A DNA stretch of 64,000 bases from a virus: positions 92,171 to 156,170 of the IMG/VR virus record IMGVR_UViG_3300028534_000015. One strand, 5' to 3'. The position numbers were made by a program, and so were the translations under genes. Below are positions 8,872 through 64,000 of this stretch, piece by piece; within the stretch, counting starts at the first letter, position 1, and each line of letters opens with the position of its first letter. Below the pieces are notes generated by a model. The model did no database searches. It was not told the origin of the DNA and saw only the letters and a program-made list of their open reading frames with translations.

Positions 8872-9207
8872 ATGTTTGTAATTGTAAAAGGATATTTTTT
8901 GGCAAAAAATGTAAGAGAAAGTAAAGAATATAGGATAGCGAAAATAAAGCACCTAAGAAATAACCCTAGATGTGTAATTTGTAACGCTATAAAAGGAAGG
9001 GTAGTACATCACCTAAACTCTGTGAGATATTTTCCAGATGAAGCGTGTGATCCTAATAACCTTATTACGTTATGTGATTATAGAAAAAATGATTGCCACG
9101 GATTATTTCATAATGTTTTTAAAGGAGGAACACGAAAGAAAACCACAAAAGAAGATTTTGAAAGATTTTTAGAAGTTGTAAACCACAAAGAGAAGTTGAG
9201 ATCCTAG
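8872..9207 (+). CDS. Small zinc-binding HNH endonuclease (likely start TTG at 8899)
   Basis: CVIC...VHHL...NLITLC...CHGLFH HNH pattern; AAAGGA RBS precedes TTG 8899. Confidence 0.85.
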   Translation: MFVIVKGYFLAKNVRESKEYRIAKIKHLRNNPRCVICNAIKGRVVHHLNSVRYFPDEACDPNNLITLCDYRKNDCHGLFHNVFKGGTRKKTTKEDFERFLEVVNHKEKLRS

Positions 9208-61446: not shown

Positions 61447-61654
61447 TTCCTGTTTCGGAGTCTTAAGACTCCGAAACAGGAAGACGTCTTGCTATTTGAG
61501 CGGCAAGACGTCTTACTCTGTCTGTCATTGTTCCGTCAATGACAGACAGAGTGAATCTCGATTCACTCACGCGAGTTAAAATAACTCGCGTGTTAAAAAT
61601 TTTAATTGTCATGATAACTCCTTTCTGATCTATCACTCATGACAATGATAGATC
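61447..61654. repeat. Array of back-to-back inverted repeats (structured RNA or cruciform locus)
   Basis: Stems at 61447-61482 (36-bp perfect palindrome), 61481-61514, 61515-61552, 61549-61568, 61568-61592, 61593-61605, plus alternative pairs 61605-14/61637-46 and 61627-35/61646-54. Confidence 0.92.
61463..61612 (-). CDS. 49-aa Arg-rich ORF inside the hairpin array (not in ORF track)
   Basis: AAAGGAG RBS then ATG 61612; MTIKIFNTRVILTRVSESRFTLSVIDGTMTDRVRRLAAQIARRLPVSES*; TAA at the apex of the 36-bp palindrome. Confidence 0.55.
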   Translation of the reverse strand: MTIKIFNTRVILTRVSESRFTLSVIDGTMTDRVRRLAAQIARRLPVSES

Positions 61655-61688
61655 GTTGATTTATACTATAATAATAATATATAAATAA

Positions 61689-62219
61689 CTATTTTTGAGA
61701 TATCCATTCGTGTCCGTTTAGAAGTATTTTTTCATTAACAGATTGATCACTTAGTAAGAACTTTTTATATTCTCTAACTAATTCAGTTTCGGTCGGTATT
61801 TCTTTATCTATAATAATTTTTCTCATGATTTCAAATTCAAACTGGTCCGCATCGCTATCAATTACAAGATAAACAAAAACATCTCCTTCTATGGTCTTGA
61901 TATAAAACCCTACTGTATCTAAATCATCGCTAATAGACGTCATCTCTGCTTTCTTTTTTAAGAGTGCGGAAATGATATCAAAAGACGACTTTGAATTACA
62001 TACGACTATGAGTGAATCAAATACTGTGGTTAAAAAAATATTGTCTTTAATTTCCCTTACTGTATTGTTTTTTAAAACAATAACAAACTTTGACTTATTT
62101 AAATATACAGATAATTCTGTTTCTGTCACTATTGTATTTTTAAATGTTTTCTCCCATATTGTTAGTCTTGTTCTTTTTTTAAAGAAAGGATCTTTAAAAA
62201 ACTTTGTAAAATTCATCAC
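61689..62219 (-). CDS. Hypothetical protein
   Basis: 176 aa, AAAGGA RBS. Confidence 0.55.
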   Translation of the reverse strand: MMNFTKFFKDPFFKKRTRLTIWEKTFKNTIVTETELSVYLNKSKFVIVLKNNTVREIKDNIFLTTVFDSLIVVCNSKSSFDIISALLKKKAEMTSISDDLDTVGFYIKTIEGDVFVYLVIDSDADQFEFEIMRKIIIDKEIPTETELVREYKKFLLSDQSVNEKILLNGHEWISQK

Positions 62220-63486: not shown

Positions 63487-63861
63487 TTATGGGTAGATAA
63501 GATCCTTTAAATACTCGTCGAAGAGTAAATCTTCTTTCACTCTTCTAAGTATTTTTGATTCTTTTAGATCATCAAACTCCGCAAAGAGTCTGATGACCAC
63601 GGAATGTGCATCACAACGAATCATGTTTTTTAGCTTTTTACTAAAAAACTTTCCTGGTTCAAGATCCGAAGGTGCGTACTTGACAAGTTGTGTGAACCTG
63701 TGGAATATTTTATACTCATCATTTGTCATCATATAACCAGGATAAACCATCACTCCTCCATCAATTAACTCCATTCCTACTTTTATAGAATTTTGCAAGT
63801 CTTTCTCAGTCACAAACTCCGACAACCCTATAATCTTACCATTAATTTCTACTGTTTTCAT
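63487..63861 (-). CDS. Hypothetical protein
   Basis: 124 aa, AAGGAG RBS. Confidence 0.6.
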   Translation of the reverse strand: MKTVEINGKIIGLSEFVTEKDLQNSIKVGMELIDGGVMVYPGYMMTNDEYKIFHRFTQLVKYAPSDLEPGKFFSKKLKNMIRCDAHSVVIRLFAEFDDLKESKILRRVKEDLLFDEYLKDLIYP

Positions 63862-64000
63862 AGTTTCTCCTTTGTTAGTTAAATATGTGTATTTACCTAT
63901 GAAAATAAATACACTGAATTATAAGTTCTTTTTTATTAAGAACGCCTTAGTTTAAACCATATTAATAATATGTAAATAAAAAAAAGAGATATCCTGTTAA

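What the first reader, a model, noticed from the sequence alone, without database searches (positions are those of the whole stretch)
61605..61654. Two mutually exclusive leader folds, one hiding the start codon of the hairpin ORF
Seen on the - strand RNA: GAUCUAUCA-UUGUCAUGAG-UGAUAGAUC forms a hairpin that leaves RBS and AUG free. Its loop segment AUUGUCAUGA is also the exact complement of UCAUGACAAU, which contains the start codon. The two pairings overlap. Inference: a translational switch of the kind used by type I toxin mRNAs, thermosensors or attenuators.
Basis: partly seen in the sequence, partly recalled or inferred. Interest (0 to 1): 0.7.

Follow-up and report, generated by a model that had tools for sequence, protein, structure and literature searches.

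The report
Start-codon-capturing leader hairpin, jumbo phage
The hairpin is real and is one of at least four copies, in the early-gene leaders of an uncultured phiKZ-like phage, of an RNA element whose loop is complementary to the gene's own start codon; it is most likely a built-in translation brake that folds as a pseudoknot rather than by refolding between two exclusive structures.

Summary
On the minus strand, a perfect 9-bp hairpin (61654-61627) has a loop segment (61646-61637) that is the exact complement of ten bases spanning the ATG (61614-61605). The ribosome-binding site AAAGGAG lies between them.

It is not chance. The same layout recurs before three other genes of this 156-kb genome: a 9-bp stem, a 9-10-nt loop pairing with -2..+7 around the AUG, and the SD in the spacer. 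The stems are rewritten with compensating changes. The loop and start context co-vary between this copy and the others. A random loop matches this well with P of about 1e-4.

A promoter matching the published virion-RNA-polymerase early promoter of phage AR9 (TATATATTAT, then G) ends 20 nt upstream of the stem. The predicted start is near 61666, so the transcript should contain the whole element.

The "two exclusive folds" reading is only partly supported. The hairpin forms first. The nested alternative is 2.9 kcal/mol less stable and lies behind a barrier of about 19 kcal/mol. The two helices overlap by one base, so an H-type pseudoknot that pairs the AUG is the likelier closed state.

There is no Rfam match. 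The 49-aa ORF and both neighbouring genes are orphans. The scan noted a similar start-codon-masking leader in another giant phage (e1-5511789).

The parts
61699..61704 (-). GATATC upstream promoter element, inside the 3' end of the 176-aa ORF
   Evidence: It lies 15 nt before the 10-mer here. The same hexamer lies 13-15 nt before the 10-mer in at least 10 other copies in the genome.
61674..61683 (-). TATATATTAT core of a phiKZ/AR9-type early (virion RNA polymerase) promoter
   Evidence: More than 12 intergenic copies, all on the gene strand. It matches the AR9 early consensus AAATATATATTAT-(6N)-G, in which G is the mapped start (PMC5312081).
61666..61667 (-). Predicted transcription start (conserved G at 61666, 7 nt after the 10-mer)
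   Evidence: A conserved G follows the 10-mer by 6-7 nt in the family and by 6 nt in AR9. This is inference; no RNA data exist.
61627..61654 (-). Stem S1 (9 bp, 61654-61646 with 61635-61627) and 10-nt loop UUGUCAUGAG (61645-61636)
   Evidence: It forms co-transcriptionally at length 40 and scores -14.6 kcal/mol when extended to 11 bp.
61637..61646 (-). Anti-start segment b (AUUGUCAUGA), almost wholly in the S1 loop
   Evidence: Exact complement of 61614-61605 (pair I8).
61618..61626 (-). Shine-Dalgarno AGAAAGGAG inside the 12-nt spacer (61626-61615) between S1 and b'
   Evidence: The same AAAGGAG sits in the spacer of the paralogous copies.
61605..61614 (-). Start segment b' (UCAUGACAAU), holding the AUG at 61612-61610
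   Evidence: It is the only perfect 10-bp match to this loop among 147 gene starts.
61463..61612 (-). 49-codon ORF made of five further perfect hairpins: 61592-61568, 61568-61549, 61552-61515, 61514-61481, 61482-61447
   Evidence: Fold z-score is -13. No protein homologue other than itself among 1.8 billion representatives.
61447..61482 (-). Gene-end hairpin (17-bp stem) with the ORF's stop codon in its loop; T10 follows at 61440-61431, then GGAGG (61430-61426) and the ATG (61421) of the 191-aa membrane ORF
   Evidence: A stop codon inside a perfect gene-end hairpin is the rule in this genome: 29 of 59 stems of >=10 bp lie at gene edges.
63855..63914 (-). Paralogous copy 2 before the 124-aa ORF: S1 GUGUAUUUA/UAAAUACAC (63914-63906 with 63895-63887), loop UUUUCAUAGG, 23-nt spacer with AAAGGAG, b' CUAUGAAAA (63863-63855)
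   Evidence: Its early promoter 10-mer lies at 63974-63965.

Best explanation
The element is a cis-acting translational operator in the 5' leader of an early phage mRNA. The predicted promoter is of the type read by the polymerase that phiKZ-like phages carry in the virion, with a start near 61666. The first 40 nt of the transcript fold into stem S1. Twelve nucleotides later the start region emerges and pairs with the exposed S1 loop over 6-9 bp centred on CAU/AUG. This gives an H-type pseudoknot in which the Shine-Dalgarno sequence lies in the connecting strand and the AUG is base-paired. The open form (an 11-bp hairpin with a closed 6-nt loop and a free AUG) and the closed form (9-bp S1 plus the loop-start helix) are roughly iso-energetic. 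The element therefore lowers, and could gate, initiation on the 49-codon ORF. Because that ORF runs through the hairpin array into the gene-end hairpin, initiation on it may also affect expression of the 191-aa membrane gene behind it. Shown: the sequence architecture, its recurrence with covariation, its non-randomness, the promoter match and the nested-fold energetics. Inferred: the transcription start, the pseudoknot rather than refolding, the repressive direction, and any trans-acting factor.
For: (1) Recurrence with identical geometry in the same genome. Copies lie before orf124 (window 63914-63855) and orf208 (genome 23247-23192), and at genome 21753-21698 before an uncalled ORF; a weaker fifth lies before orf297. 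Each has a stem of 8-9 bp, a 9-10-nt loop and the SD in the spacer; b' starts at -2 in the first four and at 0 (the A of ATG) in the weaker orf297 copy.
(2) S1 covaries. Seven of its 9 pairs differ between orf124 and orf208, all compensated, while the loop and the start context stay fixed.
(3) S2 covaries. Between orf49 and orf124, three pairs change on both sides (G-C/U-A, G-C/A-U, A-U/G-C) and none breaks. The weaker orf297 copy adds three more. Each loop matches its own or its family's start far better than the other family's: 10 against 5, and 9 against 4.
(4) Chance is excluded: P is 5e-5 to 1.6e-4 for orf49 and 3e-4 to 1e-3 for orf124, with 3 of 147 starts against about 0.1% of other ATGs.
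(5) The transcript should include the element, given the early-promoter family and the AR9 consensus with its mapped start.
(6) Kinetics favour a pseudoknot. S1 forms before b' exists, and the barrier to nested refolding is about 19 kcal/mol. A rough pseudoknot energy of -15 to -17.6 compares with -14.6 for the hairpin alone.
(7) Other early leaders of this phage also pair the AUG. The helicase leader does so in a plain 8-11-bp hairpin, AAUUCAUA with UAUGAAUU.
(8) The one polymorphism between the contig's overlapping ends falls in the unpaired spacer of copy 2.
Against: There are no expression, 5'-end or structure-probing data, and the host is unknown. The copies are paralogues within one genome. 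Copies 2 to 4 share loop and start sequence, so independent support for S2 rests on two comparisons (orf49 and the weak orf297). Only about 50 kb of distant relatives could be read; it yielded one weak candidate (L009, gene at 9113, loop with UUUUCAU). Twelve AR9 early leaders lack the element. The pseudoknot energies use generic penalties, not a dedicated predictor. With no nucleotides left between S1 and S2, the full 9-10-bp S2 is sterically impossible, so only 6-7 bp can form alongside S1. AUGAAAA-type starts are common, so the U-rich loops of copies 2 to 4 also match several non-cognate starts.
Confidence: 0.6

Rival explanations
1. A true two-state switch. The leader refolds between the hairpin (AUG free) and a nested 10-bp helix (AUG hidden) in response to temperature, a protein or an RNA.
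For: Both bare helices have nearly the same stability, -10.0 and -10.4 kcal/mol. The best full structures differ by only 2.9 kcal/mol. Lambda cIII mRNA is a precedent for such a switch (my recollection, not checked here).
Against: The hairpin forms first and holds 99% of the ensemble. The direct-path barrier is about 19 kcal/mol. Temperature does not discriminate between the helices. In copies 2 and 3 the nested alternative is 3-5 kcal/mol worse than the hairpin.
Confidence: 0.1
2. The hairpin is an operator for a phage or host RNA-binding protein that reads the conserved loop (UUUCAUAGG type). Complementarity to the start region is a by-product.
For: The loop is conserved on rewritten stems in copies 2 to 4, which is the classic look of a protein-binding hairpin. 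An earlier first-stage note read it this way (e1-5324675).
Against: The orf49 loop differs at three positions, and each difference is matched by a change in its own start region. A protein reading a fixed loop does not predict that. The two readings do not exclude each other: a protein could clamp the pseudoknot, as S15 does on rpsO.
Confidence: 0.12
3. S1 is only a 5'-proximal stabiliser that shields the early mRNA from 5'-end-dependent RNases. The match to the AUG has no function.
For: S1 begins about 12 nt from the predicted 5' end. Other early leaders carry small hairpins at a similar distance.
Against: This does not explain the loop-start complementarity (P of about 1e-4), its repetition or its covariation.
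Confidence: 0.08
4. A DNA-level element: interleaved inverted repeats that bind a repressor or extrude as a cruciform next to the promoter.
For: All stems are perfect Watson-Crick pairs. GATC sites flank S1. The phage encodes a GyrA-like gene (Pfam families listed).
Against: The centre-to-centre distance of b and b' varies (32, about 40 and 42 bp). The crossing arrangement has no obvious DNA meaning. The extended stems use U.G pairs that exist only on the transcribed strand. All copies lie on the sense strand, directly before an SD and ATG.
Confidence: 0.05

Closest known systems
E. coli rpsO (ribosomal protein S15) translational operator
   Same: A hairpin loop pairs with a downstream segment at the start codon to form a pseudoknot. 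The SD is in the connecting strand. The pseudoknot is in equilibrium with an open hairpin form and represses initiation. (My knowledge of the system; not re-read here.)
   Different: There is no sequence or Rfam relationship. No repressor protein is known here. The element is phage-encoded and repeated before unrelated orphan genes rather than serving one autoregulated gene.
Lambda cIII mRNA alternative structures
   Same: A phage early mRNA whose start codon and SD are either open or occluded, which sets the rate of translation. (My knowledge.)
   Different: In cIII the alternatives are nested, and the shift is reported to depend on RNase III and temperature. Here the nested alternative is kinetically blocked and a pseudoknot is likelier.
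PeSL cassettes (promoter-early stem-loop) of T4-type phages, PMC2839356
   Same: A repeated composite module of early promoter plus stem-loop plus SD, placed in front of orphan accessory genes. This phage repeats terminator, GATATC, T-run, promoter, leader hairpins and SD in the same way.
   Different: PeSL promoters are sigma-70-like, and their stem-loops sit in or beside the promoter and act as terminators. Here the promoter is of the AR9/phiKZ virion-polymerase type, the hairpin is in the transcribed leader, and its loop matches the start codon.
5'UTR-derived short structured RNAs of phiKZ, PMC10914365
   Same: In phiKZ, many transcripts end at terminators inside 5'UTRs and give abundant short structured RNAs. 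From the promoter to the gene-end hairpin, the unit here would be about 220-230 nt, upstream of the 191-aa gene.
   Different: The unit here carries a strong SD and a 49-codon ORF. Nothing shows that it accumulates as a separate RNA.
Start-codon-masking repeated leader in another giant phage (scan note e1-5511789)
   Same: As described there, one promoter plus a folded leader is reused before unrelated genes, with one loop complementary to each gene's own start codon.
   Different: It lies on other DNA that I did not examine, and no homology is implied.

Membership tests
phiKZ/AR9-type virion-RNA-polymerase early promoter | AT-rich consensus TATATATTAT followed after 6 nt by the start G | tested here: met
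   61683-61674, then a G at 61666 seven nt later. There are more than 12 copies on the gene strand. The consensus is from PMC5312081. The phage carries a phiKZ-type RNAP beta subunit, sheath and major head protein.
phiKZ/AR9-type virion-RNA-polymerase early promoter | Mapped 5' ends appearing early and independent of protein synthesis | not testable with these tools
   No RNA data; the genome is metagenome-derived.
H-type pseudoknot translational operator (rpsO-like) | A hairpin loop base-pairs with a downstream segment covering the start codon, with the SD in the connecting strand | tested here: met
   S1 is 9 bp, the loop 9-10 nt, b' runs from -2 to +7 and the spacer is 12-23 nt.
H-type pseudoknot translational operator (rpsO-like) | Both helices supported by compensatory changes | tested here: met
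   among paralogues of one genome only. A MAFFT/RNAalifold run was out of register and is not used.
H-type pseudoknot translational operator (rpsO-like) | Homology to the S15 leader or another catalogued leader | tested here: not met
   No Rfam family reaches its gathering score. All weak hits are hairpin artefacts.
H-type pseudoknot translational operator (rpsO-like) | A trans-acting repressor that stabilises the pseudoknot | not testable with these tools
   No candidate was identified.
Two-state mRNA switch (lambda cIII type) | Two exclusive structures that can interconvert on a biological time scale | tested here: not met
   The energy difference is 2.9 kcal/mol, but the direct-path barrier is about 19 kcal/mol and the hairpin forms first.
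Type I toxin-antitoxin mRNA | A small hydrophobic membrane peptide | tested here: not met
   GRAVY is 0.05, the best 19-aa window scores 0.58, and there are 9 K+R against 4 D+E.
Type I toxin-antitoxin mRNA | An overlapping or nearby antisense RNA gene | tested here: inconclusive
   The only plus-strand sigma-70-like hits (61639-61672) point away from the ORF and are no more frequent than in shuffles.
RNA thermometer (ROSE, fourU) | The SD or AUG is held in a weak helix that melts selectively with temperature | tested here: not met
   The SD is unpaired in both states, and both helices lose stability in parallel from 20 to 50 C. Temperature sensitivity of S2 itself cannot be excluded.
Leader-peptide transcription attenuator | Alternative antiterminator and terminator helices set by ribosome position | tested here: not met
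   The hairpins in the ORF are independent perfect stems with little competing overlap. A stop codon inside the gene-end hairpin is the genome-wide norm.
PeSL mobile regulatory cassette | A sigma-70-like early promoter with a stem-loop in or next to it, acting as terminator | tested here: not met
   The promoter type and the hairpin position differ. It is a functional analogue only.

The most novel reading that the evidence does not exclude
Jumbo phages may carry a portable early-gene leader in which a CAU-bearing loop captures the gene's own start codon as a pseudoknot, keeping early accessory messages silent until a phage-made factor opens them. That factor could be, for example, the Suv3-like helicase, whose own gene is the most structured stretch of this genome. 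This would be a programmed translational timer layered on the virion-polymerase early programme. The similar leader noted in another giant phage hints that the design may be widespread.
Probability: 0.12. Interest if true: 0.8.

Novelty: new variant of a known kind. Interest (0 to 1): 0.55.

Why it matters
Gene regulation in phiKZ-like phages has been described mostly at the level of their two RNA polymerases, and little is known about translational control of their early genes. A small, repeated leader with covarying helices, a clear sequence rule (loop complementary to -2..+7 of the start) and a predicted promoter is directly testable with reporter fusions and compensatory mutants. It would also give a compact, tunable translation brake: S2 strength ranges from about -5 to -10 kcal/mol among the copies. 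It changes the reading of the neighbouring "hairpin ORF" as well. That unit is an early transcript with an ordinary gene-end hairpin, not a classical attenuator.

Tried and rejected
- Relatives of the locus: none found. The 191-aa neighbour has no homologue but itself. The 176-aa and 191-aa ORFs have no relatives in IMG/VR or INPHARED. The 49-aa ORF has no credible homologue among 1.8 billion representatives. An exact-pattern scan of viral contigs for the copy-2/3 loop-SD-start cassette found nothing.
- L001 is the same phage from another assembly and is identical at the locus. L002 simply breaks inside the 36-bp palindrome.
- Pfam and PHROGs on seven neighbouring ORFs gave nothing above threshold.
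- The only distant relatives (major head protein 34% identical, helicase 48-54%) come from records not held for whole-record search. About 50 kb of them share the promoter motif but gave only one weak candidate element.
- Twelve AR9 early leaders are short (26-94 nt) and lack the element.
- RNAalifold on a MAFFT alignment of the five hairpins was out of register for two rows and is uninformative. The full-length MAFFT alignment split one stem. Covariation was therefore counted per sequence in a script.
- A first genome-wide MFE scan timed out and was repeated with smaller windows.
- Initiator-tRNA anticodon-arm mimicry was considered because of the U-CAU-R loops. It was dropped because loop size is inconsistent (6-10 nt) and the stems are AU-rich, without the G-C pairs of initiator tRNA.
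- Kissing dimerisation through the self-complementary UCAUGA applies only to this copy, not to the family.
- The motif TATAGTATAAAT as a separate -10 box is not enriched.

Full report
**What is there.** GATCTATCA (61654-61646) and TGATAGATC (61635-61627) form a perfect 9-bp stem around the loop TTGTCATGAG. ATTGTCATGA (61646-61637) is the exact complement of TCATGACAAT (61614-61605), which holds the ATG at 61612-61610. AAAGGAG (61624-61618) lies 5 nt before the ATG. The ATG opens a 49-codon frame made of five more perfect hairpins. The last hairpin (61482-61447) carries the stop codon in its loop. It is followed by T10, GGAGG and the ATG of a 191-aa membrane ORF. The 241-nt stretch folds at -106.5 kcal/mol, z = -13. 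No Rfam family matches, at gathering or at permissive thresholds.

**What genome this is.** The window is the last 64 kb of a 156,170-bp contig. Its first and last 133 nt are the same apart from one base, so the unit is 156,037 bp. PHROGs identify a phiKZ-type multisubunit RNA polymerase beta subunit, tail sheath, major head protein and terminase. The major head protein is only about 20% identical to any deposited phage and 34% to one metagenomic protein. This is therefore a deep, uncultured phiKZ-like lineage.

**Transcription.** Printing all gene junctions showed a repeated module: gene-end hairpin, GATATC, T-run, TATATATTAT, then a conserved G 6-7 nt later.
- More than a dozen copies exist, all intergenic and all on the gene strand.
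- The core equals the experimentally mapped early promoter of Bacillus phage AR9, AAATATATATTAT-(6N)-G, where G is the start. That promoter is read by the virion-borne polymerase (PMC5312081).
- The copy in front of the finding has GATATC at 61704-61699, the 10-mer at 61683-61674 and the G at 61666.
- The predicted transcript therefore starts about 12 nt before the stem and contains the whole element. The upstream 176-aa gene has no terminator, so read-through transcripts would contain it too.

**The element is a family.**
- I asked, for every called gene start, whether a segment covering the start codon has a complement within 70 nt upstream. The finding came top with 10 bp, and the 124-aa ORF was next.
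- A second scan required that complement to lie in the loop of a hairpin. It returned three starts with the same geometry. A scan of all other ATGs found a fourth copy before an uncalled ORF, and a scan of SD-preceded starts added a weaker fifth.
- The copies are:
  - orf49: GAUCUAUCA, loop UUGUCAUGAG, UGAUAGAUC, 12-nt spacer, UCAUGACAA.
  - orf124 (window 63914-63855): GUGUAUUUA, loop UUUUCAUAGG, UAAAUACAC, 23-nt spacer, CUAUGAAAA.
  - orf208 (genome 23247-23192): ACUCUAUAA, loop UUUCAUAGG, UUAUAGAGU, 21-nt spacer, CUAUGAAG.
  - Genome 21753-21698: an 8-bp version of the orf124 stem.
  - orf297 (weaker): AAUAGAAU, loop AAUAGCAUGG, AUUCUAUU, 20-nt spacer, AUGCUA.
- In every copy the SD AAAGGAG lies in the spacer. 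The start-side arm begins at -2 in the first four copies and at the A of the ATG in the weaker orf297 copy.
- Copies 1 to 3 follow a recognisable early promoter; copy 4 has a degenerate one and the orf297 copy has none.

**Covariation and chance.**
- Seven of the 9 stem pairs differ between orf124 and orf208, each compensated, while loop and start context are unchanged.
- Between orf49 and orf124, three loop-start pairs change on both sides and none is broken. orf297 changes three more.
- Loops match their own family's start far better than the other family's: 10 against 5, and 9 against 4.
- Shuffled or random loops reach the observed helix with P = 1.6e-4 and 5e-5 for orf49, and 1.1e-3 and 2.8e-4 for orf124.
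- The full architecture scores >=17 at 3 of 147 starts. It does so at 6 of 5,467 other ATGs, one of which is the fourth copy.
- The single polymorphism between the contig's overlapping ends lies in the unpaired spacer of copy 2.

**Switch or pseudoknot.**
- Nested-fold thermodynamics give the hairpin, extended to 11 bp through U-A and U.G, -14.6 kcal/mol. The best structure containing the start-hiding helix scores -11.7. Ensemble shares are 0.99 and 0.01, and the two bare helices lose stability in parallel from 20 to 50 C.
- Growing the transcript from 61666 shows the hairpin complete at length 40, while the start segment appears only at 53-62. The direct-path barrier from hairpin to the nested alternative is about 19 kcal/mol.
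- Spontaneous refolding is thus too slow to matter in an infection.
- The two helices share only A61646 and cross each other, which is the topology of an H-type pseudoknot. S1 of 9 bp, S2 of 6-7 bp (GUCAUGA with UCAUGAC), 2-3 nt before S2, one G after it and a 12-nt strand carrying the SD is a standard geometry.
- With generic Dirks-Pierce penalties the pseudoknot comes out at -15 to -17.6 kcal/mol for orf49. For copies 2 and 3 it is -8.5 to -10.5, close to their hairpins.
- I therefore read the two states as a closed-loop 11-bp hairpin with a free AUG, and a 9-bp hairpin plus a loop-start helix with a paired AUG. This step is inference; no pseudoknot predictor or probing data were available.

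**Context that changes neighbouring readings.**
- Perfect hairpins at gene ends that overlap the stop codon are the rule here: 29 of 59 stems of >=10 bp lie at gene edges. The stop codon in the loop of the last hairpin is therefore ordinary, not evidence for an attenuator.
- The 49-aa peptide is basic and not hydrophobic, is an orphan, and was not called in the other assembly. Its SD is nevertheless as good as that of the best genes.
- A genome-wide window scan puts two regions far above the rest. One is this unit (z -6.65). The other is the coding sequence of a Suv3-like SF2 helicase at genome 26.55-27.4 kb (z -6.8). The helicase leader also hides its AUG, in a plain hairpin.
- In phiKZ, many transcripts end inside 5'UTRs and leave short structured RNAs (PMC10914365). 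A 220-230-nt RNA from 61666 to the gene-end hairpin would fit that pattern.

**Comparison with known systems.**
- By mechanism, the closest are the rpsO/S15 operator (loop-to-start pseudoknot in equilibrium with a hairpin) and lambda cIII (open and closed start region). Both comparisons rest on my knowledge.
- By genome organisation, the closest are the PeSL cassettes of T4-type phages (PMC2839356).
- It belongs to none of these families. There is no Rfam match, the promoter type differs and the hairpin position differs.
- Twelve AR9 early leaders are short and lack it.
- About 50 kb of distant relatives share the promoter but gave only one weak candidate.
- Earlier notes of this scan had seen the repeated cassette and the conserved UUUCAUAGG loop in this genome, and a start-codon-masking leader in another giant phage. 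The new points here are the link of the orf49 hairpin to that family, the loop-start covariation that argues for RNA-RNA pairing, and the kinetic argument for a pseudoknot.

**Verdict.** It is a new variant of a known kind of translational operator. Interest is moderate, and higher if the design proves general in jumbo phages.

Noticed in passing
genome 26402-27514 (outside the window; L003:403-1515, minus strand): A conserved Suv3-like SF2 helicase gene (Pfam Helicase_C, DEXQc_Suv3; 63 homologues at up to 54% identity) carries nine perfect hairpins of 8-16 bp inside its coding sequence. It is the most structured stretch of the genome (z -6.8). A homologue in another phage contig (L013) is also unusually structured in its first 400 nt; two others (L009, L011) are not.
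   Followed up: partly
L003 about 1201-1240; L009:10278-10311; L013:10310-10339: In three distant phages the helicase motif II region encodes I-V-D-E-x-H-F-I-N-D, whose codons are reverse complements of each other (ATCGTTGATGAA with TTCATCAACGAT). This gives a 12-14-bp hairpin at the same place in each gene. It is unclear whether the protein motif or the hairpin is under selection.
   Followed up: no
window 61699-61704, 63988-63993 and at least 9 other sites in the genome: GATATC lies at a fixed 13-15 nt before the early-promoter 10-mer, even where no terminator hairpin or T-run precedes it. It may be an upstream promoter element; the AR9 consensus quoted does not include it.
   Followed up: partly
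genome 87024 down to 86564 (L004), minus strand: An early promoter is followed by about 460 nt without a convincing ORF, ending in a cluster of three perfect hairpins and a 16-bp terminator-like stem. This is a candidate long early non-coding RNA.
   Followed up: no
genome 21705-21676 (L005:2376-2405), minus strand: The fourth copy of the element fronts a 9-codon ORF whose well-spaced SD and ATG overlap the start of a longer ORF in the +1 frame. This could be a frameshifted gene, or an upstream mini-ORF coupled to the main one.
   Followed up: no
L002 (Logan SRR8439170 contig end); window 61447-61482: An independent assembly of the same phage breaks exactly inside the 36-bp perfect palindrome. 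This is probably a de Bruijn graph artefact at palindromes, and it may cause such hairpin units to be lost from short-read assemblies.
   Followed up: no
window 63868-63874 versus genome 1-11: The contig's two ends overlap by 133 nt with one C/G difference, which lies in the unpaired spacer of leader copy 2. The genome unit is 156,037 bp.
   Followed up: yes
window 61637-61642: The orf49 loop contains the self-complementary UCAUGA, so two RNA molecules could in principle kiss loop to loop. The other copies lack such a palindrome.
   Followed up: no
L009:9020-9120: A distant relative has a hairpin (UUUAAUGG with CCAUUAGA) whose loop contains UUUUCAU, 48 nt before a gene starting AUGAAAA. This is a weak candidate for the same kind of element.
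   Followed up: no
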